Shown: positions 27,226 through 47,479, numbered from the stretch's first letter. The stretch: DNA of 64,000 nucleotides from a bacterium (GCA_021812345.1 JAKANP010000003.1:82-64081); one strand, 5' to 3'. Made by a program: numbers and translations. The notes: a model not told the origin generated them from the sequence alone.

Positions 27226-27245
27226 GGTGCCCGGGGAGAGACTCG
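27226..27245 (-). other. 19-nt duplicate of the tRNA-Leu(CAA) 3' end (CGAGTCTCTCCCCGGGCAC)
   Basis: Exact 19-mer match to nt 27380-27398 in same orientation, 133 nt downstream of the intact tRNA; here followed by an encoded CCA. Confidence 0.8.
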
Positions 27246-27378
27246 CCTACAAATCCTCCCTCGTCAGTCACTCGGTCGGCTCGCAGGCCACCCCTCGTCC
27301 CGACTTATCGGGACTGCGGTCTTCAAGTCCTCCACGCAAGCAGAGCGGTCTGCTTGCTCCAGTCACTAACTTCGTTAG

Positions 27379-27462
27379 TGCCCGGGGAGAGACTCGAACT
27401 CTCAAGACCTTGCGATCACAGGATTTTGAGTCCTGCGTGTCTACCAGTTCCACCACCCGGGC
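27379..27462 (-). tRNA. tRNA-Leu(CAA)
   Basis: Reverse complement gives GCCCGGGTGGTGGAACTGGTAGACACGCAGGACTCAAAATCCTG...GAGAGTTCGAGTCTCTCCCCGGGCA; 7-bp acceptor, anticodon loop CTCAAAA, long variable arm, 84 nt. Confidence 0.85.
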
Positions 27463-37037: not shown

Positions 37038-38942
37038 ATGGGAAATAAATTTGAAAGTTTTGATGGGCCGATTAAATCCTCCAAGAAAGAAGAAGAGGCG
37101 ATAAAGAGGGTTGTCGATAATTCCGAAGTGGAGAATGCGATAAAAGAATTAAAAACCGCCGGTGAAATTGCCGTAGAAAAAACCGGTGGCCCGATTCCCA
37201 AAAAAGAAGAAAGGATGGGCAGAGATATGACTGCCGCGGAATTGGCTATGAAAAAAGCCGACGAGATGATTGCTCAAATGGATAACAAACCCAAAGAGAA
37301 AAGCGAATTGCCGGAAAGCAAACCGCAAGATGAAATAGAAGATGTTTTTAAATCTTCGGATGGTATTGCCGAATCAGCCAGTCTTCCGGGTAGCGGCAGT
37401 CCCGGCGGTGGAAATAATGGCAATCCTAAATATGAAACACAGATGGGAGGAGGCCCGGGAGATTCCGGTGACTACCCCACATGTCCAAATTGTGGTAAAA
37501 AAATACTTCCCGGGAAAGAAGAATATCACAGAACAAAACAATGTTTATTGGAAAATCCTGATAGCAATGTTTTGAAAGTTAATTCTCACATTGAATTTGG
37601 ACCGGGAGTAACTATTGAAGATTTAGAAAATGAATTAGCCAGAAAAGAAAAAGAACTCCAGGATCTTGAGGGCACTACTCCGGATAATTTTATTTTCAAA
37701 GACACTTTCAGTAGAGAAGATATAGAAAAAACTATAGAAAATAATAAACGACAGCTTAAAAAAGAAATTGAAAGATTGAAAAAGGAGATAGAAAAAATGA
37801 AAGCTGACGCCGAAAGGGAAAAAATACTTTCCGAATTAAATGCCAAGCTTTTAGATGCTCAAGAAAATTTGGAAAAAGCCAAAATGAGCGCCAAACCGAT
37901 GGAAATCGCATATTGGGAAGATATTATTAAAAAAATTAAAGAAGAAATATCAAAATACGAAAAAGGCATAATCCCCGGAGCAATTGATGCGATTAAAAAA
38001 GCTTTCGAATCTTTTAAAGACAGCAATGCGTGGGGATTTATAAAAGAAAGAGCAAAAGGCTTTGGGACTTTCGGTTTTTGGGAATTTCATCAGGCGGAAA
38101 GATTAAGAAGCGGAACAGCTAAAACAGGAAAGACAATCGAGGAGCAGGCAAAACTGATTTCGGAAGAAAAGCATTTGGATTTAAATGCCGCTTTGGAGGA
38201 AGCTTCCCATATGGAAAAAGTTTTTGATGCCGCCGGAATTGATCCGACCGACAGGAGAAAAGAAGAATACGATCTTTTATCAGAAAAAATAACCGATAGA
38301 AAAAAACAGGAAAATGAAGTTGTTATTAAAAAAATAATTGATGGAATTCCGGCCGCTCTCGAAAGTCGAAACGTGCAAAAATATAGGGAAGCCAATACCG
38401 GTAAAATAGCTATGACTCCGGAAAAAATAAAAGATTTGCAGGAGAAAATCAGGATTGAGCTCGAAAAAATGAAAGACGGCACTGCTCGTCAGGATGTTGA
38501 AAAATATGCAACAGTTATGAGAAGAGGATTGGATCCAAAGTGGTGGTCAAGATATATTTATGGCGGATTGGAAACTGCACTGGATGCTATTGGAGTTAAG
38601 TTGATTCTTTCCAAAGTTTTAGCGGAAAAATCGGTTGCGGCGGTTTCGGAAAAAGCTCCCGGACTGGTTTCATCCCATAGTTCTGCCGAAAAAAGCGTTG
38701 AAATTGGAATGAGAGATAATGTTTGGAATGAATCGCGAAGATTCCTTGTTAAAGAGGGAATTTCCAATCCTTCAAACAAACAAGTTCTTGAAGCTGCCAG
38801 AACCGTGGCGCAAGAAAGCGGAGTGACAGTCCCGGAATGGGGAATAAACGGACATATTTTAAGCACCAAGATGCCAGCAGGTTATTTGCTTAAAATGGGG
38901 GGAGTTATAAAAAAATTATTAATGATAAAATCGTTGGGATAA
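37038..38942 (+). CDS. Hypothetical coiled-coil protein with CPNC Zn-ribbon-like motif
   Basis: 634 aa, K/E-rich heptad-like segments, Gly/Pro linker, YPTCPNCGKK; no recognisable family. Confidence 0.4.
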   Translation: MGNKFESFDGPIKSSKKEEEAIKRVVDNSEVENAIKELKTAGEIAVEKTGGPIPKKEERMGRDMTAAELAMKKADEMIAQMDNKPKEKSELPESKPQDEIEDVFKSSDGIAESASLPGSGSPGGGNNGNPKYETQMGGGPGDSGDYPTCPNCGKKILPGKEEYHRTKQCLLENPDSNVLKVNSHIEFGPGVTIEDLENELARKEKELQDLEGTTPDNFIFKDTFSREDIEKTIENNKRQLKKEIERLKKEIEKMKADAEREKILSELNAKLLDAQENLEKAKMSAKPMEIAYWEDIIKKIKEEISKYEKGIIPGAIDAIKKAFESFKDSNAWGFIKERAKGFGTFGFWEFHQAERLRSGTAKTGKTIEEQAKLISEEKHLDLNAALEEASHMEKVFDAAGIDPTDRRKEEYDLLSEKITDRKKQENEVVIKKIIDGIPAALESRNVQKYREANTGKIAMTPEKIKDLQEKIRIELEKMKDGTARQDVEKYATVMRRGLDPKWWSRYIYGGLETALDAIGVKLILSKVLAEKSVAAVSEKAPGLVSSHSSAEKSVEIGMRDNVWNESRRFLVKEGISNPSNKQVLEAARTVAQESGVTVPEWGINGHILSTKMPAGYLLKMGGVIKKLLMIKSLG

Positions 38943-38977: not shown

Positions 38978-39286
38978 ATGGAAAATAATTTTGAAAAAAT
39001 CGGAGAATTATTGGCAAAGTCGCCTTTAGATAAAGAAATCAAAGATGTTGTTTTGGAAAATTTGGATAAAATGCCGGAAAATGCATTAAATGATTTGGCT
39101 TATTCCTTAGAAAAAGAAGATGAACAACTTGAAAATATTTCCAAGATATTAAAAGATTTTGACGCCGATCAAGACGCAAGATGGAACAATTTGGAAGTCA
39201 AGCAAAAAGAAATTGCCGATAAAATGATAGATGAAGCAATAAACGAAATATCAAGCGATGGAAAAGCAGAAGAGAAAGTTAACTAA
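38978..39286 (+). CDS. Hypothetical acidic protein
   Basis: 102 aa highly acidic ORF. Confidence 0.3.
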   Translation: MENNFEKIGELLAKSPLDKEIKDVVLENLDKMPENALNDLAYSLEKEDEQLENISKILKDFDADQDARWNNLEVKQKEIADKMIDEAINEISSDGKAEEKVN

Positions 39287-39333: not shown

Positions 39334-39660
39334 ATGTTATCCAAAGAAATTTCCGAAAAAATAAAATCCGGCGCTCTTGTGTCGGTAGTTGAAAGAATCA
39401 AAGAGGGCGATAAAGAAAGACAGAGCCAATTTAAGGGCATTGTTTTATCAAGAAAGCATGGCGATCAGCCCGGGGCAACTTTCACTGTTAGAGCGGTCGT
39501 CGATGGAGTGGGTGTTGAAAAAATTTATCCTTTATTGTCGCCGAATATCGTTTCGGTAAAAATAATTTCTTCTCCCAAAAAAGTGGGACGTTCGAAACTT
39601 TATTATTTGAGAAAAGTTTCCAAAAAGAAATCAAGGCAGAAAATCGGAGTAACGGCATAA
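39334..39660 (+). CDS. rplS: 50S ribosomal protein L19
   Basis: ISEKIKSGALVSVVERIKEGDKERQSQFKGIVLSRKH...FTVR...GVEKIYPLLSPNIVSVKI...KLYYLR matches bL19. Confidence 0.8.
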   Translation: MLSKEISEKIKSGALVSVVERIKEGDKERQSQFKGIVLSRKHGDQPGATFTVRAVVDGVGVEKIYPLLSPNIVSVKIISSPKKVGRSKLYYLRKVSKKKSRQKIGVTA

Positions 39661-39694
39661 ATTCAAATCAAATATCAAATCTAAAATATAAAAA

Positions 39695-39724
39695 CAAAAA
39701 CAGGGGATCATACCCCTGTTTTTG
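39695..39724 (+). terminator. rho-independent terminator after rplS
   Basis: aaaacaggggatcatacccctgtttttgg. Confidence 0.65.
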
Positions 39725-39786
39725 GTAAAATACATTGTTATGCGCTAATACCTTGAGCGAAATATTATATTTGATAAAATATAAAT

Positions 39787-40452
39787 ATGAATCCTTTGGG
39801 TAAAGTTAAAATCAAATGGTCTCCGAATTTTGCTTACGCGATTGGGTTGATAGCGACAGACGGAAATTTATCATCAAATGGCAGATGTATTGTTTTTACG
39901 TCAAAAGACTTGGAAATGATAAATAATTTTTTAAAATGTCTATCTGTATCTTCAAAAATAAGCATGAAGGCTAGGAGCAATGAGAAAGAGAAGAAGTATT
40001 ATTATGTTCAGATCGGGGATATAAATTTCTATAAGTTTCTGAATTCTATTGGACTTACTCCGGCAAAATCAAAAACTATCGGAATTATTAACATACCTGA
40101 CAAATATTTCTTTGATTTTTTGCGGGGACATTTTGATGGGGATGGCACTTCCTATTCTTATTGGGATAAGCGTTGGAAATCAAGCTTCATGTTTTATACA
40201 GAGTTCATATCGGCCAGTAAAAAACATATTGATTGGCTTAGGGGCGAAATTTCTAAAAAAATTGGAATCAATGGGCATATAACAAAATCAAAAAATAATT
40301 CAGTTTATCAATTAAAATATGCGAAAAGAGAGTCTACAAAATTGATTTCAAGAATGTACTATGGTAAAAAGGTTGTATGTCTTTCTAGAAAAATAGAGAA
40401 AATCAAAAAGGCATTAGCAATAAATAAAGTTGAAGATGCCCAGGTGCTGTAA
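39787..40452 (+). CDS. Free-standing LAGLIDADG homing endonuclease (double motif)
   Basis: Two LAGLIDADG motifs: YAIGLIATDGNLS and FLRGHFDGDGTSY, 221 aa; not inside an obvious intron or intein host; 3' end overlaps tRNA-Leu(GAG) by 15 nt. Confidence 0.8.
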   Translation: MNPLGKVKIKWSPNFAYAIGLIATDGNLSSNGRCIVFTSKDLEMINNFLKCLSVSSKISMKARSNEKEKKYYYVQIGDINFYKFLNSIGLTPAKSKTIGIINIPDKYFFDFLRGHFDGDGTSYSYWDKRWKSSFMFYTEFISASKKHIDWLRGEISKKIGINGHITKSKNNSVYQLKYAKRESTKLISRMYYGKKVVCLSRKIEKIKKALAINKVEDAQVL

Positions 40453-40521
40453 CTGGTAGCCAGGCCAGCTTGAGGTGCTGGTGTCCGCAAGGACGTGGAG
40501 GTTCGAGTCCTCTCCTGGGCA
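40438..40521 (+). tRNA. tRNA-Leu(GAG)
   Basis: GCCCAGGTGCTGTAACTGGTAGCCAGGCCAGCTTGAGGTGCTGGTGTCCGCAAGGACGTGGAGGTTCGAGTCCTCTCCTGGGCA; anticodon loop TTGAGGT, long variable arm. Confidence 0.8.
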
Positions 40522-40558
40522 CAAAACAAAACAGCCAAATAGGCTGTTTTGTTTTGTG
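40522..40558 (+). terminator. Strong hairpin immediately 3' of tRNA-Leu(GAG)
   Basis: acaaaacaaaacagcc-aaat-ggctgttttgttttgt, 16-bp perfect stem. Confidence 0.6.
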
Positions 40559-40720
40559 CAGGAAGCAGGTAAATTTATTTGCTTGTGTGAGGATTCGAAC
40601 GACGGAGTATGTGCGAGCCAGCAGGCGAGCGCACGAGTCGGTGCCCAGCCCGAGCTGAGCGACTGGCGAAGCGAGAGGCGAGGGTAAATCCCTTACCTGC
40701 CGGTAGGCAGGTCTCCTGGG

Positions 40721-41050
40721 TACTACTTCGCTCCTACTTCGTAGAAACTTCGTAGGACGCGGTAAAGCTTCGTAGCACAAAGCACTACTTTGCTCCTACT
40801 TCGTAGAAACTTCGTAGGACGCGGTAAAGCTTCGTAGCACAAAGCACTACTTTGCTCCTACTTCGTAGAAACTTCGTAGGACGCGGTAAAGCTTCGTAGC
40901 ACAAAGCACTACTTTGCTCCTACTTCGTAGAAACTTCGTAGGACGCGGTAAAGCTTCGTAGCACAAAGCACTACTTCGCTCCTACTTCGTAGAAACTTCG
41001 TAGGACGCGGTAAAGCTTCGTAGCACAAAGCACTACTTTGCTAAAGCTTC
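40721..41050. repeat. Tandem array of 5.2 near-identical 62-bp units with phased TTCGTAG-type subsites (iteron-like)
   Basis: Unit CTCCTACTTCGTAGAAACTTCGTAGGACGCGGTAAAGCTTCGTAGCACAAAGCACTACTTTG repeats without spacers; each unit has three exact CTTCGTAG plus one degenerate copy with start-to-start spacings 11/11/20/20 bp. Confidence 0.9.
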
Positions 41051-41115
41051 TTTTTTTAATAGAGCAAAACATAAAATAGGCCCATCACGGTCTATTTTTG
41101 ATTTTATTTATCAAC

Positions 41116-41144
41116 TTGACACAAGTAATAATATGTGCTAGTAT
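41116..41144 (+). promoter_or_regulatory. Sigma70-type promoter (TTGACA-17-TAGTAT) upstream of the GC-rich ORF
   Basis: Core TTGACACAAgTAATAAT nearly identical to the promoter at 42154; followed by SD AGGGAGG 6 nt before ATG 41249. Confidence 0.5.
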
Positions 41145-41248
41145 TTGCTCATAATCGGGGGATGAGGGATTGTCCCAAAATTCTACCGATACAGCACTCA
41201 ATGTTTTAATGTTTTTGTCCCGATGGGAGTCGGGGCAGGGAGGTCACA

Positions 41249-42025
41249 ATGGAAGCGATGGAGAGAATCAAGGGTTTGATGGACGAGAAGGCCGTCGAGA
41301 AGTGGGCCGGTGAGTTCGGGACCTGGAAGGACAAGATGGTCCACGAGCTCGCCAACGAGCTGTCCAAACGAGGGTTCTCCTCCGAGAACCCGGCAGCGGC
41401 AAAGGACGTCAAGGCGGCCGAGCAGTTTCTGGCCGCCAAGAGGCAGCTCGTGGAGGCGAAGGTCGACGAGACCTTCACCCCCGAGAACATCGCCGCCGCA
41501 CATCTGGACTGCATCATCAAGGTCCAGGTGGATGAGACGCAGGAGTTTCGTGTCATCTGTCAGTCGCCTCGTCACGCCGGGGCGAACATGGCAGTTCTCC
41601 CGACCCAGAAGTTCATCGTCCGCAAGAACGCGGACGGCGAGCTGACTCGGATGTGCCACCAGGGCACATCCGAGGCGATCGTCACCGGCGACTTCCTGGT
41701 CACCGGGGAGGGGCGGATCATGCGCTTCTGTCCCTTCTGCAAGGACAAGGCGATCGCCGCCGCCCGCGAGCGTGGCGAGAAGTTGACGTTCTACCGCCTC
41801 GGCGAGGCGGTGAACAAAATCTCCCGCATCCGGGAGAACGAGGCGCGCGAGGCCGAAGAGAACGCCAAGCGCGAGGCTGAGGCCGAGCGGATGGAGCACT
41901 CGGCTTCCCGACAGATCGCCGGCAAGCGCGTGGACTCCCGACGCGCCGACTTCAACCGTCGGCACACCTCCGGACTCAAGCGTGCCAGCGGAAAGTTGGC
42001 CCGCGATCTCATGAGCGAAGACTGA
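41249..42025 (+). CDS. Orphan GC3-rich protein (foreign-looking), Cys motif FCPFC
   Basis: 258 aa; coding region about 62% GC with strongly G/C third positions in a 35% GC genome; good SD; terminator at 42088; no recognisable domain; the antisense ORF 41198-42046 is a high-GC artefact. Confidence 0.6.
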   Translation: MEAMERIKGLMDEKAVEKWAGEFGTWKDKMVHELANELSKRGFSSENPAAAKDVKAAEQFLAAKRQLVEAKVDETFTPENIAAAHLDCIIKVQVDETQEFRVICQSPRHAGANMAVLPTQKFIVRKNADGELTRMCHQGTSEAIVTGDFLVTGEGRIMRFCPFCKDKAIAAARERGEKLTFYRLGEAVNKISRIRENEAREAEENAKREAEAERMEHSASRQIAGKRVDSRRADFNRRHTSGLKRASGKLARDLMSED

Positions 42026-42087
42026 GTGAAAGCACTCTCTCTTCACTAAATTGACCCTGGAGGAGTCAATAGTGAAGGGAAAAAATC

Positions 42088-42117
42088 AAAACCCTGACAA
42101 TAACGTCAGGGTTTTTT
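42088..42117 (+). terminator. rho-independent terminator
   Basis: aaaaccctgacaataacgtcagggtttttt. Confidence 0.7.
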
Positions 42118-42153
42118 AATTTCCAAGCGAGCATATTTGATGGATCAATTAAT

Positions 42154-42182
42154 TTGACACAATAATAATTTCGGTATATTAT
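42154..42182 (+). promoter_or_regulatory. Sigma70-type promoter (TTGACA-17-TATTAT)
   Basis: aatTTGACAcaataataatttcggtaTATTAT; paralogous to the promoter at 41116. Confidence 0.5.
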
Positions 42183-42318
42183 ATTTTTAGTATTTTTATA
42201 TATAAATTAGTAATGAGCTGACTACCTTCATCTAAAGATGATCGCGGATTTAACGCTGACTCTCGCAGATGAAGAGAGTGAGCTCGTTACTAATGAAAGA
42301 GCAAGAAAGGGGAACAAG

Positions 42319-43068
42319 ATGAGCAATTTATTTTCTTCCGATTTTTTTTCGACTCGCGATATTTTTTTGAATTTGTTTGAGAGCAGTCGGGTTGATATCG
42401 GCAAAAAGGGTTTTCGCTTTAGCACTCAGATTCGAGATTTGGTGAAGAAAGGAATTGAGGTTCTCAAGAGTGGAAACAGAGATGAGATTGGCGGAATCAG
42501 ACAAAAAATTTCCGATGCTTGGACAGAATTAATTGATGCCCGTATTCCTTCGGATCTTGCTTGGCGTCACGAAGCCGAGGCGGCTCAAGAATTGTGGGAG
42601 TTTGAATTTGTTGTAGCTATGTACGATTATCTTTTTGACGGCGCGGCGTTGGATTTTAAGAAGTTTGATATTTATCCGCCGGATGAAGATGGCGATGAAG
42701 ATAGCGAAGAATATCGTGAAAAACAAGCGAGAAACGATTATATGTGTTCATTTACTCCTCAGCAATGGCTCGCCGGTCTTATCGATGCTCCTACCGAATT
42801 GGGTAAGGTTTTGGAGGATTATTGTATTGACAATGATCTTTCTCCCAGCGCGTACGTAGAACTGTGGGATAAATATGTTAAGATCGTGGAGCAAGTTGTG
42901 AACTTTCTCAGCCCGTTTGAAAATGTGTATGGGCAGGTAATCAACAACTCCCGGATGCGCGGATTTGCCAATACTTTTCGCGGTCGCTATGGTCGGCTGC
43001 GCGGATTTCTTGAGAGAAAAAAGCGCGACTTGATGATACTCAGACTTCAAATGAAGATTGGTTTGTAA
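42319..43068 (+). CDS. Hypothetical all-alpha protein (orphan); start at ATG 42319 after SD AAGGGG
   Basis: The annotated ORF begins at 42238, but SD plus ATG at 42319 (MSNLFSSDFF) fits better; intermediate GC (about 45%); terminator at 43083. Confidence 0.45.
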   Translation: MSNLFSSDFFSTRDIFLNLFESSRVDIGKKGFRFSTQIRDLVKKGIEVLKSGNRDEIGGIRQKISDAWTELIDARIPSDLAWRHEAEAAQELWEFEFVVAMYDYLFDGAALDFKKFDIYPPDEDGDEDSEEYREKQARNDYMCSFTPQQWLAGLIDAPTELGKVLEDYCIDNDLSPSAYVELWDKYVKIVEQVVNFLSPFENVYGQVINNSRMRGFANTFRGRYGRLRGFLERKKRDLMILRLQMKIGL

Positions 43069-43082
43069 TTTATTTTAAATAT

Positions 43083-43110
43083 GTCCCGGTAGTTTCCGGG
43101 ACTTTTTTTA
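43083..43110 (+). terminator. rho-independent terminator
   Basis: gtcccggtagtttccgggacttttttt. Confidence 0.7.
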
Positions 43111-43234
43111 TTTAAAATAATTTTATCAAGCATCTTACAACCGTAGGATGCCTGATAAATTAATATTAACGCATAATCATTTTTTGCCTTTTTGTAAAAT
43201 TTTATTTAAAATAAAATCATCTAAAATAAAAATT

Positions 43235-44380
43235 ATGAAACGAGAAAATATTGTCGCCAAAGATCAAACAAGCGAAAAATTGCTCAAGGAAATAGAAAAC
43301 AAAAACGATATTAAAAGTGAAAGAATTAAAAGGCTTTTGGCAATGCCGGATCTTTCACGAAAAATAAATTCTCCGCTTAAATTTATTATTGACGCCATTC
43401 TGGCTCTGCCGATTTTCAAAGATTTTGATATTTTGGAATTTCCGGAAATTGTAAGTGTTCGGGATAATTTTGATTTGTTAAATGCCCCCGCCGAACATCC
43501 CAGCCGAAAAGAAACCGATACTTATTATGTTGACGTAAATCATGTTTTGCGAACTCAAACTACGGTTATGTGGCCGTTTTATTTACAGCGTCCTGAAGCG
43601 ATAGAGCAACTTAAAAAAGAAGGAGAAATAGGATTGTTGAGTTACGGAAAAGTTTTTAGAAAAGATGAAATAGACAGAAGTCATTTTCCGGTTTTCCATC
43701 AGATAGACGGACTTTATATTTGCAAAAAAGAAAAGAAAATAATCGGCATCCCGGAACTTCAGGAGGTCTTAACTGCCATAACGAAAGCTATTTATGGAGA
43801 TATAGAATACAAATTTTTGGAAGACAGTTTTCCTTTTACAAATCCAAGCACTCAAATTGAAATAAAATCAAAAGATGTTTGGCTTGAAGTTGTCGGCGCC
43901 GGAGTGGTTCACACTCAGGTGCTAAAGAATCTTAATATTGATCCGGAAATTTATAACGGATGGGCATTCGGATTCGGCTTGGAGCGTCTGGCGATGATAA
44001 AGAACGGTATCAACGATATCAGAGTTTTTTGGTCCAACGACGAAAGGATTGCCGGACAATTTAAAGATATAAATAGTCAATACAAAGAAGTAAGTAAGTT
44101 TCCGATGACTTATCGCGACATTTCATTTATTATAAATAAGGATACGAGTTTGAATAATTATTACGAAATTGTCCGTGATTGCGCCGGTGATTTAGTGGAA
44201 GAAGTTAAAATGACCGACAAATATGAAAATAATCAAAAATTCGGTCCGGATAAAATAAGTTATACTTTCAGAATTACCTATCGCTCTCCGGAAAGGACGC
44301 TCACCAACGAAGAAGTAAATTTGATACAAGAAAAAATTATTGAAAAAACAAAACAAGAGATAAACGCTGCCGTGCGTTAG
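43235..44380 (+). CDS. pheS: Phenylalanine--tRNA ligase, monomeric type: PheS catalytic core fused to C-terminal FDX-ACB anticodon-binding domain
   Basis: Class II motifs (HPSRKETDTYYV...LRTQTT; FPFTNPSTQIEI...WLEVVGAGVVH; AFGFGLERLAMIKNGINDIRVF) followed by PMTYRDISFII...ISYTFRITYRSPERTLTNEEVN, which matches the FDX-ACB fold normally at the PheT C-terminus; no pheT in window. Confidence 0.8.
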   Translation: MKRENIVAKDQTSEKLLKEIENKNDIKSERIKRLLAMPDLSRKINSPLKFIIDAILALPIFKDFDILEFPEIVSVRDNFDLLNAPAEHPSRKETDTYYVDVNHVLRTQTTVMWPFYLQRPEAIEQLKKEGEIGLLSYGKVFRKDEIDRSHFPVFHQIDGLYICKKEKKIIGIPELQEVLTAITKAIYGDIEYKFLEDSFPFTNPSTQIEIKSKDVWLEVVGAGVVHTQVLKNLNIDPEIYNGWAFGFGLERLAMIKNGINDIRVFWSNDERIAGQFKDINSQYKEVSKFPMTYRDISFIINKDTSLNNYYEIVRDCAGDLVEEVKMTDKYENNQKFGPDKISYTFRITYRSPERTLTNEEVNLIQEKIIEKTKQEINAAVR

Positions 44381-45755: not shown

Positions 45756-47063
45756 ATGAAAAAATATTTTGCCGGCAATTTTGGAGTTATTTTGGTTTTT
45801 GTCGCTTCTTTATTGCCGGCGATTTTTTGGATTTTTCAGGAATCAATCGGAATCAGATTTTCCGGAACGTTCTCCACTTTCAGAAGTTTTGGCCAATTAT
45901 TCGGATTAGTTGGGATAAGTATGTTTGCTGTTTCTCTTTTTTTAAGCGCTCGACTTAAATTTTTTGACAAATATTTTGACGGATTAAGCAGGGCGTATGA
46001 TTTACACCATTTTTTGGGGGGATTGGCTTTCGTGTTTATTCTTTTTCATCCTTTATTTTTGGCGTTGGCTTATTTTTCTGTGACGCCGTCTCTGGCTTTG
46101 AGTTTTTTATTTTTTCCGTCGACGATGGCTGTCAATTATGGAAGAATAGGATTTTTAATAATGTTCATTTTGCTTATTTTGACTTTTTATTATAGAACTT
46201 CCATTAAATATCAAAATTGGAAATTATCCCATAAATTGCTGGGTGTCGCTTTTTTCTTCGGCGGACTCCATTCTTTTTTTATAACAAGCGATATTTCAAC
46301 CAATATGCCGTTGCGTTGGTATATTTTAATTTTATCAGCGGTAGGGATCGCGGCTTATTTTTACAGAACCTTATTGTATCCTTTTAGTGTAAGGCGTTAT
46401 CTTTATAAGGTGTCGGCAATAAAAAAAATAGGGGACGACGTTGTTGAAATCACCATGGTTCCGATCGGAGAAAAGATTAAATATCAAGCCGGACAATTTG
46501 CATTTTTGAGTTTTCAAAGCAATTCCGTGAGCAAAGAACCCCATCCATTTTCTTTGACTTCGCGCCCTGAGGATGATTTTATTCAAATCGGGGTGAAATC
46601 TTCAGGCGATTATACAAAGCATTTAATTAATTTATCCATAGGAGATACGGCTGAAGTCGAAGGAGCATTTGGAATTTTTTCTCCGGAAAAATCAAAAAAT
46701 AGAAATCAGATTTGGATTGCCGGTGGAATAGGGATAACTCCCTTTGTAAGCGTGGCGCGAAGTTTGAATTGGAAAAATTTCTCCGTCGATTTGTATTATT
46801 CTTTCAAAGAAGATGGAGATGGAGTTTATTTGAAGGAACTCGAGGAAATTTCGGAAAAGACCGATAATTTAAGAATTGCCCCGTGGATTTCTCAAAAAAT
46901 GGGAAGAATAGACGCTTCCAAAATAAAAAGAGTAAGCGATAAAATCGAAGAGAAAGTTATTTTTATTTGCGGTCCGTCGGAAATGATAATTGCTTTAAAA
47001 AAAGATTTTATCAATAATGGAGTTTTGAAAGAGAATATTTTTAGTGAGGAATTTAATATGTAA
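45756..47063 (+). CDS. Ferric-reductase/NOX-like transmembrane flavoprotein (FRD domain + FAD/NAD(P)-binding)
   Basis: 6 TM helices with conserved His pairs, HPFSLTS FAD-binding motif, GGIGITPF NAD(P)H-binding motif. Confidence 0.7.
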   Translation: MKKYFAGNFGVILVFVASLLPAIFWIFQESIGIRFSGTFSTFRSFGQLFGLVGISMFAVSLFLSARLKFFDKYFDGLSRAYDLHHFLGGLAFVFILFHPLFLALAYFSVTPSLALSFLFFPSTMAVNYGRIGFLIMFILLILTFYYRTSIKYQNWKLSHKLLGVAFFFGGLHSFFITSDISTNMPLRWYILILSAVGIAAYFYRTLLYPFSVRRYLYKVSAIKKIGDDVVEITMVPIGEKIKYQAGQFAFLSFQSNSVSKEPHPFSLTSRPEDDFIQIGVKSSGDYTKHLINLSIGDTAEVEGAFGIFSPEKSKNRNQIWIAGGIGITPFVSVARSLNWKNFSVDLYYSFKEDGDGVYLKELEEISEKTDNLRIAPWISQKMGRIDASKIKRVSDKIEEKVIFICGPSEMIIALKKDFINNGVLKENIFSEEFNM

Positions 47064-47071
47064 GGAATAAT

Positions 47072-47479
47072 ATGACAAAAAAAATTGTATCAATTTCGCT
47101 TTTTATATCGTGGACCATTTTGGTGATTTTTATAACCGCAGGACTTTTTTCTTTTGGAAATAAACCCAATCAATCCTCTTCCGGTGTTCAACCAAATAAG
47201 ACAACTCCTGTTTCTTCATCGACTGCAACAGCCGGCAATACTTCTATTAAAAGTTATTCATTAAACGAAATTGCCAAACATAATAATCAAAATGATTGCT
47301 GGATGGCAATTGGTGGAAAGGTTTATGATGTTACTTCTTTTATCGGATCTCATCCCGGAGGAGAAAGAGCAATTTTGAGTGGTTGCGGAAAAGATGCCAC
47401 AAACGCTTTTGATAGCCGTCATTCTCAGGCGGCATTTGATTTACTACCTCAATTTTTTATCGGAAATCTAAATTCATAG
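47072..47479 (+). CDS. Membrane-anchored cytochrome b5-like heme-binding protein
   Basis: N-terminal TM helix; cyt-b5 heme-binding block WMAIGGKVYDVTSFIGSHPGGERAIL...GKDATNAFD. Confidence 0.7.
   Translation: MTKKIVSISLFISWTILVIFITAGLFSFGNKPNQSSSGVQPNKTTPVSSSTATAGNTSIKSYSLNEIAKHNNQNDCWMAIGGKVYDVTSFIGSHPGGERAILSGCGKDATNAFDSRHSQAAFDLLPQFFIGNLNS

What the first reader, a model, noticed from the sequence alone, without database searches (positions are those of the whole stretch)
39787..43068. Accessory islet at tRNA-Leu(GAG): free-standing LAGLIDADG endonuclease, GC-rich spacer, iteron-like array and two orphan genes with duplicated promoters
Between core genes rplS and pheS lies a 3.3-kb block that differs sharply from the rest of the window. 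It contains: (a) a double-motif LAGLIDADG homing endonuclease that is not inside any recognisable intron or intein and whose stop overlaps the tRNA; (b) tRNA-Leu(GAG) with a 16-bp hairpin; (c) about 160 nt of >60% GC DNA ending in a near-copy of the tRNA 3' end (TCTCCTGGGTAC vs TCTCCTGGGCAC); (d) five perfect 62-bp tandem repeats; (e) a 258-aa ORF of about 62% GC with strongly G/C third positions; (f) a second orphan ORF. Both ORFs are driven by near-identical AT-rich TTGACACAA-TAATAAT promoters and end in clean terminators. The composition contrast, tRNA adjacency, att-like duplicate and repeat array suggest a horizontally acquired or episome-derived module. The function of both proteins is unknown. 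No integrase is present in the window.
Basis: partly seen in the sequence, partly recalled or inferred. Interest (0 to 1): 0.8.

Follow-up and report, generated by a model that had tools for sequence, protein, structure and literature searches.

The report
Fast-changing tRNA-Leu locus, not an islet
The block is this genome's version of a locus that every sampled relative carries between rplS and pheS, and it holds a mobile homing-endonuclease gene, an uncatalogued structured RNA that copies the end of the neighbouring tRNA, a variable repeat, a zinc-protein gene whose codon usage is the reverse of the genome's in every relative, and a TRAX/C3PO-like nuclease gene.

Summary
All the described features are in the sequence, with small corrections. 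The reading as a recently acquired islet is only partly right.

- **Not an assembly artefact.** Eleven independent contigs carry the block.
- **Same slot in every relative.** At least eight related lineages have a GC-rich gene plus a partner gene between rplS/tRNA-Leu(GAG) and pheS.
- **Family-wide GC excess.** The GC-rich gene (ORF-A) has GC3 of 0.81-0.88 in every lineage, against 0.33-0.6 in its neighbours. It is under purifying selection (dN/dS 0.22).
- **Coding regions diverge far faster than the flanks.** The closest relative shares only the promoters and leaders at nucleotide level.
- **ORF-B is TRAX/C3PO-like.** Its top PDB match is AfTRAX, and the ExxE...DxxxE tetrad is kept.
- **The LAGLIDADG gene is a sporadic free-standing homing endonuclease.** Its promoter sits on a tRNA-Leu fragment. 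In two otherwise diverged genomes it is 98-100% identical together with the tRNA.
- **The "GC-rich spacer" is a conserved structured RNA not in Rfam.** 26 of 45 pairs covary. It ends in a copy of the adjacent tRNA's 3' end, and a second copy follows tRNA-Leu(CAA) in this window.
- **The 62-bp array is strain- or assembly-variable.**

The function of the ORF-A/ORF-B pair, the cause of the GC3 bias and the role of the RNA remain inferred.

The parts
39732..39780 (+). Remnant of a tRNA-Leu(GAG) gene (D-loop to anticodon, ...ATTGTTATGCGCTAATACCTTGAG). Its TTGAGC serves as the -35 of the promoter-like site of the endonuclease gene (TTGAGC-16-TAAAAT with TG).
   Evidence: The remnant is conserved upstream of the ORF in all three lineages that carry the endonuclease, and is absent from L023 and L010, which lack it.
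39787..40452 (+). Free-standing double-motif LAGLIDADG homing endonuclease gene (221 aa).
   Evidence: Pfam and PHROG hits and PADLOC HEase. It is present in the window, L020/L025 and L026/L044 (about 63% aa identity) and absent in L023, L010, L008 and L015. L026 and L044 are 98-100% identical at nucleotide level over this region.
40438..40522 (+). tRNA-Leu(GAG). The allele is a mosaic: the acceptor stem is like L025, the body like L010.
40523..40557 (+). Terminator-type hairpin with a 14-bp stem after the tRNA.
40556..40724 (+). It has five helices and ends in a near-copy of the tRNA 3' end (40712-40723).
   Evidence: Covariance model R1 scores it at 136 bits. RNAalifold finds 22 of 45 pairs with compensatory changes. 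In one search, 26 of 45 pairs change on both sides, against 13.3 +/- 2.1 in shuffles and 3-7 in slid controls. Rfam has no match.
40722..41042 (.). 62-bp tandem array, 5.2 copies, with the sub-repeat CTTCGTAG three times per unit. Copy number varies between assemblies.
   Evidence: There is no counterpart in relatives.
41073..41098 (+). Terminator-like hairpin that closes the RNA-element/repeat unit.
   Evidence: An equivalent terminator directly follows the element in L026, L030 and L023.
41116..41248 (+). ORF-A promoter (TTGACA-17-TAGTAT with TG) and a leader of about 100 nt, with the conserved motif AUAAUCGG-hairpin-CCGAUACAGCAC and a hairpin next to the GGGAGG ribosome-binding site.
   Evidence: This stretch is 77.5% identical to L023 although the ORFs differ.
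41249..42025 (+). ORF-A, 258 aa, GC3 0.86. It has an invariant C-x4-H...C-x2-C site and a basic C-terminal tail. The family is very small.
41198..42046 (-). In-register antisense ORF (282 aa). It is a by-product of the absence of TTA, CTA and TCA codons, not a gene.
   Evidence: The frame is interrupted in 3 of 11 family members.
42088..42115 (+). ORF-A terminator.
42154..42318 (+). ORF-B promoter (11 of 12 consensus positions) and a leader of about 130 nt with a long-range helix (GAGCTGACT...GAGCTCGTT).
   Evidence: This stretch is 78% identical to L023.
42319..43068 (+). ORF-B, 249 aa, a TRAX/C3PO-like protein with an ExxE...DxxxE motif.
   Evidence: The catalytic tetrad is described in PMC5100593.
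43083..43102 (+). ORF-B terminator.
27227..27366 (-). Second, divergent copy of the structured RNA element, directly downstream of tRNA-Leu(CAA) (27378-27462, minus strand). Its last 18 nt are an exact copy of that tRNA's 3' end.

Best explanation
The 3.3-kb block is this genome's allele of an old, syntenic, rapidly diversifying locus that lies between rplS/tRNA-Leu(GAG) and pheS in a group of small AT-rich genomes. That they are Patescibacteria-like is my inference. The locus is a mosaic of separate units.

1. **A selfish free-standing LAGLIDADG homing endonuclease gene.** It sits immediately 5' of the tRNA gene and is transcribed from a promoter built on a tRNA-Leu fragment. It spreads by break-induced gene conversion, which drags along the tRNA and the RNA element next to it.
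2. **The tRNA itself.**
3. **A structured RNA of about 165 nt.** It belongs to a family that follows tRNA genes and ends in a copy of the 3' end of the neighbouring tRNA.
4. **A young 62-bp minisatellite.** It lies between that RNA and the RNA's terminator.
5. **Two single-gene transcription units.** Each has a consensus promoter, a conserved structured leader and its own terminator.
   - ORF-A is a zinc-binding protein with a basic tail. Its family keeps GC3 above 0.8 whatever the composition of the host genome.
   - ORF-B is a TRAX-like, metal-dependent nuclease.

I infer that ORF-A and ORF-B act together on RNA, as a bacterial counterpart of C3PO in which ORF-A takes the place of the non-catalytic partner. 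I also infer that their coding regions are repeatedly replaced or driven apart, while the regulatory flanks are kept.

**Shown here:** the anatomy, the synteny, the selection regime, the composition, the RNA covariation and the patchy distribution of the endonuclease gene.

**Inferred:** endonuclease activity and its target, the ORF-A/ORF-B partnership, the reason for the GC3 bias, and the role of the RNA.
For: **Synteny.** The same arrangement is found in at least eight lineages.

**Divergence from L010.** Flanking proteins are 70-84% identical to those of L010, while ORF-A is 38% and ORF-B 39% identical.

**Divergence from the closest relative, L023.** rplS is 93.5% and pheS 86.6% identical at protein level. 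Nucleotide homology survives only in rplS, the tRNA 3' part, the two promoter/leader regions and pheS. L023's gene in the ORF-A position barely matches the ORF-A profile (10 bits).

**Composition.** GC3 is 0.81-0.88 in all 11 genes examined at this position.

**Selection.** dN/dS is 0.22 for ORF-A and 0.12 for ORF-B. The dS of ORF-A is 0.36 against 0.35 for pheS.

**ORF-B.** The top PDB match of the family profile is AfTRAX (E = 7.5e-4), aligned over both acidic motifs. The D114A mutant chain aligns at the nearly invariant Asp. The top five Foldseek hits are AfC3PO chains. Pfam Translin gives E = 7e-4 for the L023 member.

**Endonuclease gene.** Its distribution is patchy. A conserved tRNA fragment and promoter lie upstream of it. 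L026 and L044 are 98-100% identical from rplS to the end of the RNA element, and then fall to 22-89%.

**RNA element.**
Against: - No experiment or expression data supports any part of this.
- The window's own ORF-B does not hit Pfam Translin. The best family member reaches 20 bits against a cut-off of 25.9. Its structure model is poor (pLDDT 57).
- ORF-A and ORF-B are separate transcription units, and the partnership rests only on conserved adjacency.
- L019 has no ORF-B called after its ORF-A homologue; the next gene there looked like RNase J to me. The contig is only 1.8 kb.
- A terminal helix between the 5' end of the RNA element and its tRNA-derived 3' end is clearly specific to its own lineage in only 2 of 5 cases.
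- The cause of the GC3 bias is unexplained.
- Very fast vertical divergence and allele replacement by recombination cannot be told apart with these data.
Confidence: 0.55

Rival explanations
1. The block is a recently acquired genomic islet, from a GC-rich donor or an episome, integrated at tRNA-Leu(GAG). The tRNA-end copy is an att site and the repeats are iterons.
For: - The block is next to a tRNA, and part of the tRNA 3' end is duplicated.
- ORF-A has a strong GC and codon-usage contrast with the genome.
- The coding DNA has no nucleotide homology with the closest relative.
- A sharp identity break falls exactly at the tRNA-end copy when L026 and L044 are compared.
Against: - Homologous genes occupy the same position in all sampled relatives.
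- The GC3 excess is found across the whole family, including distant members in hosts of 42-50% GC.
- ORF-B is only slightly above host composition.
- The direct repeat brackets only the 190-bp hairpin plus RNA element, not the genes, and no third copy exists downstream.
- The array has 1.2 copies in other assemblies and is absent from relatives.
- No homologue was found in any other genomic setting.
Confidence: 0.12
2. ORF-A and ORF-B form a conflict module, such as a toxin-antitoxin pair or an anti-phage or anti-host system. Arms-race selection would explain the extreme divergence and the swapping of alleles. The unusual codon usage would keep the toxic or regulated ORF-A at low expression, or make its mRNA resistant to an AU-directed RNase.
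For: - Divergence is several-fold faster than in the flanks, while the regulatory regions stay conserved.
- Non-homologous or barely homologous GC-rich ORFs occupy the same position.
- A nuclease partner is present.
- A 40-nt palindrome flanks the cassette in L026.
Against: - There are no PADLOC, Pfam or NCBIfam hits for either protein.
- dN/dS is well below 1 in the one close pair tested.
- The two genes are not co-transcribed.
- The locus sits among housekeeping genes in every genome.
Confidence: 0.18
3. The GC-rich spacer has no function. It would be a decayed tRNA duplicate, or the scar of an excised integrative element, and its RNA-like structure would be inherited from tRNA debris.
For: - The element ends in a copy of the tRNA 3' end, and on the opposite strand it holds a T-loop-like 12-mer.
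- A global alignment to the tRNA is weakly better than chance: 23 of 2000 shuffles score as well.
- The element lies at a recombination breakpoint.
Against: - A core of about 130 nt with five helices is conserved next to three different tRNA genes (Leu-GAG, Leu-CAA, Arg-GCG), and once with no tRNA nearby.
- 26 of 45 pairs carry compensatory changes, against 13.3 +/- 2.1 in shuffles and 3-7 in slid controls.
- Many G-U pairs fit the tRNA strand only.
- In most loci the element has its own downstream terminator.
Confidence: 0.12
4. The block is an assembly artefact, a chimeric join at the GC transitions, or the GC-rich 'ORF' is really a non-coding RNA.
For: There are abrupt GC steps. Long ORFs lie on both strands of the GC-rich stretch.
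Against: - The same junctions appear in 11 contigs from independent samples and assemblers.
- Protein-level conservation runs along one frame with in-frame indels.
- GC3 > GC1 > GC2 on the sense strand, and dN/dS is 0.22.
- The antisense frame is interrupted in 3 of 11 members.
Confidence: 0.02

Closest known systems
Phage T4 SegB, and free-standing homing endonucleases in general (PMC2330249; PMC10055350)
   Same: The endonuclease gene lies between genes rather than in an intron or intein, next to tRNA genes. It has a patchy distribution. A near-identical tract that includes the neighbouring tRNA is shared by otherwise diverged genomes, with a sharp boundary of exchange.
   Different: It belongs to the LAGLIDADG family, not GIY-YIG. 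It is on a cellular chromosome, not a phage. Its left border is a tRNA-Leu fragment ending at anticodon position 36 that supplies the promoter. Cleavage has not been tested.
Archaeal C3PO: homo-octameric TRAX-like nucleases AfTRAX (3zc0/3zc1) and NeC3PO (5jr9) (PMC5100593)
   Same: Similar size and all-helical prediction. The ExxE and DxxxE acidic motifs align with the catalytic tetrad. AfTRAX is the top sequence and fold match in the PDB.
   Different: The match is very distant and below Pfam's cut-off. Among bacteria, PMC5100593 reports the superfamily only in Chloroflexi. Here the gene is always paired with an unrelated zinc-protein gene and carries a long structured leader. The window/L010 type has extra insertions.
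RNAs with tRNA-like ends (tmRNA, bacterial YrlA, viral tRNA-like structures) and att duplications of tRNA 3' ends by integrative elements. The T-loop-to-3'-end identity blocks are recalled from memory (Williams 2002).
   Same: The last 13-19 nt equal the T-loop/T-stem/acceptor 3' strand of a real tRNA. Part of that copy is paired with an upstream strand (helix 2). The element sits right after a tRNA gene, where islands usually integrate.
   Different: ARAGORN finds no tmRNA or tRNA there, and no Rfam family matches. There is no resume codon or tag. No integrase is present, and the repeat brackets only about 190 bp. The copied sequence changes with whichever tRNA is adjacent.
Genes kept at non-optimal codon usage (kaiBC, Neurospora frq; recalled from memory)
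   Same: The gene's codon choice is the reverse of the genome's preference (GAG 90% against 14%, AAG 90% against 14%, ATC 100% against 17%), and this is maintained through deep divergence.
   Different: Here first and second codon positions are also GC-shifted. The bias is far stronger, and it co-occurs with hyper-divergence of the protein. No regulatory role is known.

Membership tests
LAGLIDADG homing endonucleases | Two LAGLIDADG motifs in one chain, and a profile match | tested here: met
   AIGLIATDG and LRGHFDGDG are in the translation. Pfam PF14528 gives 39.9 bits against a cut-off of 22.5. phrog_4645 gives 1e-31.
LAGLIDADG homing endonucleases | Residence in a group I intron, archaeal intron or intein (the usual setting) | tested here: not met
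   No host gene is interrupted. No group I intron match was found even at E <= 10. The ORF lies between rplS and an intact tRNA. It is therefore free-standing.
LAGLIDADG homing endonucleases | Mobility: patchy presence, and co-conversion of flanking DNA | tested here: met
   Present in 3 of 7 lineage groups. L026 and L044 are 98-100% identical across the endonuclease gene, the tRNA and the RNA element, but 60-89% identical beyond them.
LAGLIDADG homing endonucleases | Site-specific DNA cleavage | not testable with these tools
   This needs a biochemical assay on the tRNA-Leu(GAG) region of L023 or L010.
Translin/TRAX superfamily (C3PO) | Pfam PF01997 at or above the gathering score | tested here: not met
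   The window protein has no hit. The best members give E = 1e-3 and 20.0 bits against a cut-off of 25.9.
Translin/TRAX superfamily (C3PO) | Catalytic acidic tetrad E-x2-E ... D-x3-E (HsTrax E123/E126/D193/E197; NeC3PO E82/E85/D117/E121; PMC5100593) | tested here: met
   E92, E95 and E161 are invariant and D157 nearly invariant in 14 sequences. They align to AfTRAX ELLE and DAVGE.
Translin/TRAX superfamily (C3PO) | Seven-helix translin fold | tested here: inconclusive
   The single-sequence AF2 model is all-helical but has pLDDT 57. The top five Foldseek hits are AfC3PO (probability 0.96-0.99), but TM-scores are only 0.3-0.4.
Translin/TRAX superfamily (C3PO) | Octameric assembly and metal-dependent RNase activity | not testable with these tools
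tRNA-integrated genomic island | Direct repeats of the tRNA 3' end that bracket the island, plus an integrase | tested here: not met
   The repeat brackets only 40523-40711. There is no further copy within 4 mismatches. No integrase gene is among the called genes of any locus.
tRNA-integrated genomic island | Absence from close relatives (an empty site) | tested here: not met
   Every relative sampled has genes at this position. Only the alleles differ.
Iteron-type replication origin | A conserved array of repeats next to a rep gene | tested here: not met
   Copy number is 5.2 against 1.2 in the same strain. The array is absent from relatives. No Rep-like hit was found.
Any Rfam family, for the spacer RNA and the leaders | A covariance-model match | tested here: not met
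   Only the tRNA reaches significance in 39600-43300 at E <= 10.
tmRNA / tRNA | Detection by ARAGORN or the tRNA model | tested here: not met
   No call at 40556-40724 or 27227-27366.

The most novel reading that the evidence does not exclude
Two things here may be new.

1. **A class of structured RNAs attached to tRNA genes.** These RNAs are about 140-170 nt long with five helices. Each ends in a copy of the T-arm/acceptor 3' strand of whichever tRNA it follows (Leu-GAG, Leu-CAA or Arg-GCG). Two roles are possible. The RNA could be a tRNA mimic, matured by tRNA-processing enzymes. Alternatively it could be a module that marks a recombination junction, at which the downstream cassettes are exchanged.

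2. **A protein family held at GC3 above 0.8 by a gene-specific force, in genomes of 37-47% GC.** The family is paired with a bacterial TRAX-like nuclease. Candidate forces are selection on the mRNA, for example resistance to an AU-directed RNase or gating of translation by rare codons, and strongly GC-biased gene conversion at a recombination hot spot.
Probability: 0.25. Interest if true: 0.85.

Novelty: new variant of a known kind. Interest (0 to 1): 0.64.

Why it matters
1. **Compositional anomaly need not mean recent transfer.** Here the anomaly is inherited with the gene family, across lineages whose synonymous sites should long since have come to match their host genome's composition. This gives a clean natural case for asking what can hold one gene at the opposite codon usage from its genome.

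2. **Translin/TRAX nucleases may extend into a further bacterial group.** They appear here with a fixed, unrelated partner protein. The prokaryotic role of C3PO is still open, and this pairing could help.

3. **The spacer RNA family may be new.** It is absent from Rfam and has strong covariation. Its link to tRNA 3' ends may bear on how tRNA genes become hot spots of genome change.

4. **The endonuclease case is unusually clear.** It shows a free-standing LAGLIDADG gene in a cellular chromosome with a visible tract of exchange.

Tried and rejected
- **ORF-A and ORF-B against family libraries.** Pfam, PHROGs, PADLOC and NCBIfam gave nothing usable.
- **ORF147 of L010.** I looked for remains of it in the window's spacer and found none.
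- **Spacer as a decayed tRNA.** Alignment to the tRNA was weak or non-significant.
- **Group I intron around the LAGLIDADG gene.** There is no Rfam signal and no room for a ribozyme core. PMC13011429 describes the known tRNA introns of Patescibacteria, all in anticodon loops and 184-894 nt long.
- **tmRNA, OMEGA-type guide RNA and bridge RNA readings of the spacer.** I considered and dropped these. No tag or ARAGORN call supports tmRNA. No TnpB, IscB or IS110 gene is adjacent. Part of the tRNA copy is base-paired rather than free.
- **Third att copy downstream.** None was found.
- **Antisense 282-aa ORF as a second gene.** Rejected, because it is not conserved.
- **Terminal helix of the RNA element.** The cognate versus non-cognate duplex test was inconclusive.
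- **Genome-collection scan.** It returned one locus, with an uninformative organism name.

Full report
**1. What is in the sequence**

The window is 37% GC. Between rplS (39334-39660) and a single-chain pheS (43235-44380) I find the following.
- **LAGLIDADG ORF**, 39787-40452: Pfam LAGLIDADG_3 5e-10; phrog_4645 1e-31.
- **tRNA-Leu(GAG)**, 40438-40522.
- **Terminator hairpin** with a 14-bp stem.
- **GC-rich stretch** of about 59-61% GC, up to 40724.
- **62-bp repeat**, 5.2 copies at 98% identity, 40722-41042.
- **Terminator-like hairpin**, 41073-41098.
- **258-aa ORF**, 41249-42025: 63.6% GC, GC3 0.86.
- **Second ORF** ending at 43068.

Promoter-like sites at 41116 and 42154 and terminators at 42088 and 43083 are present. 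Only four stretches of the 64-kb window exceed 54% GC over 150 nt apart from two marginal peaks in other genes: two tRNA regions, the spacer and the 258-aa ORF.

Corrections:
- The hairpin has 14 bp, not 16.
- The repeats are not perfect.
- The second ORF starts at ATG 42319 (249 aa), by alignment with homologues.
- The 282-aa antisense ORF (41198-42046) lies in register with the sense codons. It is explained by the absence of TTA, CTA and TCA codons, and it is interrupted in 3 of 11 family members.

**2. Not an artefact, and not private to this genome**

The exact ORF-A protein is on 11 contigs from independent ENA, NCBI (GCA_027423215.1, GCA_027423225.1) and Logan assemblies, with the same neighbours.

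The ORF-A family is tiny: 3 clusters among 5.8 billion proteins and 9 representatives among 1.84 billion. Wherever enough context exists, the gene sits after a tRNA gene and before an ORF-B homologue and pheS. This holds for L007-L014, L015, L020-L022 and L025. Searching with ORF-B found further loci with the same order: L023/L024/L028 and L026/L027.

**3. A compositional anomaly that is inherited**

ORF-A homologues have GC3 of 0.81-0.88 in every lineage, while flanking genes have 0.33-0.60. This includes the most distant members, L149 and L150.

In the window, the codon choice is the mirror image of the genome's.

| Codon | Share in ORF-A | Share in the genome |
|---|---|---|
| GAG | 90% | 14% |
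| AAG | 90% | 14% |
| ATC | 100% | 17% |

CGN codons also replace AGA for arginine. First and second codon positions are GC-shifted as well.

Between the close pair L010 and L008, ORF-A has dN/dS 0.22 and dS 0.36, against dS 0.35 for pheS. It is therefore a functional protein-coding gene whose synonymous sites change at the ordinary rate, yet stay G/C.

**4. The partner gene is TRAX/C3PO-like**

- A profile of 14 ORF-B homologues has AfTRAX (3zc1) as its best PDB match (E = 7.5e-4). The alignment covers an ExxE and a DxxxE motif.
- The D114A mutant chain (3zc0) aligns its Ala to the family's nearly invariant Asp.
- These four acidic residues are the catalytic tetrad of TRAX and NeC3PO (PMC5100593). 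They are invariant or nearly so in the family.
- Foldseek with a weak single-sequence model (pLDDT 57) still ranks AfC3PO chains first to fifth, and NeC3PO and translin further down.
- Pfam Translin is hit below threshold by two members.
- JGI names one member a translin-family protein.
- PMC5100593 lists Chloroflexi as the only bacterial phylum with this superfamily.

I therefore treat ORF-B as a distant, probably active, TRAX-like nuclease. Membership of the Pfam family is formally not met.

**5. The coding regions turn over, the regulatory regions do not**

- **Window against L010:** flanking proteins are 70-84% identical, ORF-A 38% and ORF-B 39%.
- **Window against L023,** the closest relative (rplS 93.5%, pheS 86.6%): BLASTN finds homology only in five places. 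These are rplS, the tRNA 3' part, 41115-41191 (ORF-A promoter and leader), 42174-42293 (ORF-B promoter and leader) and pheS.
- **L023's gene in the ORF-A position:** it has GC3 0.81 but matches the ORF-A profile at only 10 bits. L023's ORF-B is 58% identical to that of L020, and only about 26-29% to the window's.
- **L026/L044:** these carry a third, apparently unrelated ORF with GC3 0.86-0.88. Gene callers had annotated its antisense frame.
- **ORF-A leaders:** those of the window, L023, L026, L044, L015 and L020 share AUAAUCGG-hairpin-CCGAUACAGCAC. Covariation support is limited.

This pattern means either allele replacement by recombination within conserved regulatory flanks, or extreme diversifying evolution. 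I cannot separate the two.

**6. The LAGLIDADG gene**

- It is present in the window, L020/L025 and L026/L044 (about 63% aa identity) and absent from L023, L010, L008 and L015.
- All copies are preceded by the same fragment of a tRNA-Leu(GAG) gene, from the D-loop to the anticodon. The fragment's TTGAGC is the -35 of a conserved promoter-like site. Loci without the endonuclease gene lack the fragment.
- There is no group I intron.
- L026 and L044 are 98-100% identical from rplS through the endonuclease gene, the tRNA and the spacer element. Identity then drops abruptly to 22-89%.
- This is the footprint expected of homing with co-conversion, as described for T4 SegB in a tRNA cluster (PMC2330249) and for nuclease genes at boundaries of exchange (PMC10055350).
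- tRNA alleles next to the endonuclease gene share the T-loop TTCGAGT. Alleles without it have TTCAAAT or TTCGACT.

**7. The "GC-rich spacer" is a structured RNA family**

- **Where else it occurs.** The same element follows the tRNA and its terminator in L026/L044. A motif scan of metagenomes found it in L030, after tRNA-Arg(GCG). It also found it in L065, after tRNA-Leu(CAA), and in L148, with no tRNA nearby.
- **Covariation.** RNAalifold predicts 45 pairs, 22 with compensatory changes. On a model-fitted alignment of 7 copies, 89.6% of cells pair, against 74.0% in shuffles. There, 26 pairs change on both sides, against 13.3 +/- 2.1 in shuffles (0 of 500) and 3-7 in slid controls. The caveat is that the alignment was fitted to the structure.
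- **Second copy in the window.** The covariance model found it at 27227-27366 (minus strand; 47.8 bits, E = 3.5e-9), directly after tRNA-Leu(CAA). Its last 18 nt are an exact copy of that tRNA's 3' end.
- **The tRNA-end copy is general.** In each locus that has a neighbouring tRNA, the element ends in a copy of that tRNA's T-loop/T-stem/acceptor 3' strand.
- **Internal pairing.** Helix 2 pairs part of this copy with an upstream strand. A further terminal helix is plausible but is lineage-specific in only 2 of 5 cases.
- **A second type.** L023 carries a more divergent type, related to the window's second copy.
- **No known family.** Rfam has no match, and ARAGORN sees no tRNA or tmRNA there.
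- **Function.** Its role is unknown. I consider a tRNA-mimicking processed RNA, or a recombination-junction module, the leading ideas.

**8. The 62-bp array**

The array lies between the RNA element and the terminator at 41073-41098. Four other assemblies of the same strain have 1.2 copies, and one contig starts inside the array. Relatives have nothing similar. I read it as a young minisatellite, or as an array collapsed in short-read assemblies, and not as an iteron origin.

**9. Verdict**

The block is not a foreign insertion, though. It is a conserved locus whose contents evolve or are exchanged unusually fast. Known kinds account for two parts: the free-standing homing endonuclease and the TRAX-like nuclease. 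Three things have no precedent that I could find:
- the family-wide reversal of codon usage in ORF-A;
- conserved leaders in front of interchangeable ORFs;
- the structured RNA linked to tRNA genes.

The functional statements are inferences and are marked as such.

Noticed in passing
window 27227-27366 (- strand), next to tRNA-Leu(CAA) 27378-27462: A second, divergent copy of the structured RNA element. It ends in an exact 18-nt copy of the 3' end of tRNA-Leu(CAA).
   Followed up: partly
window 43235-44380: The 'pheS' gene encodes a class II core plus an FDX-ACB anticodon-binding domain in one 381-aa chain, with no pheT beside it. This is the architecture of mitochondrial-type monomeric PheRS. 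It is conserved in all related loci.
   Followed up: no
window 45756-47063 and 47072-47479: A NOX-like ferric reductase (Ferric_reduct + FAD_binding_8 + NAD_binding_1) is followed by a cytochrome b5 gene. This is an unusual pair for a small AT-rich genome. It is present in L023 but replaced by a PGA_cap gene in L015, L020 and L025.
   Followed up: no
L026 4446-4485 and 5759-5798: Two copies of a 40-nt palindrome (GAAAAAGTA.GCTAT.CGACGATCGTCGGATAG..TACTTTT) bracket the GC-rich cassette from promoter to terminator. They may be cassette borders.
   Followed up: no
L010 2098-2541, L008 2099-2542; L026 3836-4288: Extra small genes sit between the tRNA (or RNA element) and ORF-A. One is a Cys-rich 147-aa ORF in L010/L008. 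The other is an unrelated 150-aa ORF in L026. Each has its own promoter and terminator and no family match. The window has the RNA element and the repeats at that place.
   Followed up: partly
window 40438-40522 compared with L025, L010, L023 and L026: The window's tRNA-Leu(GAG) is a mosaic, with the acceptor stem of the L025 type and the body of the L010 type. tRNA alleles next to the endonuclease gene share the T-loop TTCGAGT, and alleles without it have TTCAAAT or TTCGACT.
   Followed up: partly
L015 7672-7759: In this lineage tRNA-Leu(GAG) lies on the opposite strand between rplS and ORF-A, so the tRNA has been inverted locally.
   Followed up: no
window 37038-38942 and 38978-39286: Two ORFs of 634 and 102 aa upstream of rplS have no Pfam hit above the curated cut-off. 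They are shared with L023 but not with L010 or L015.
   Followed up: no
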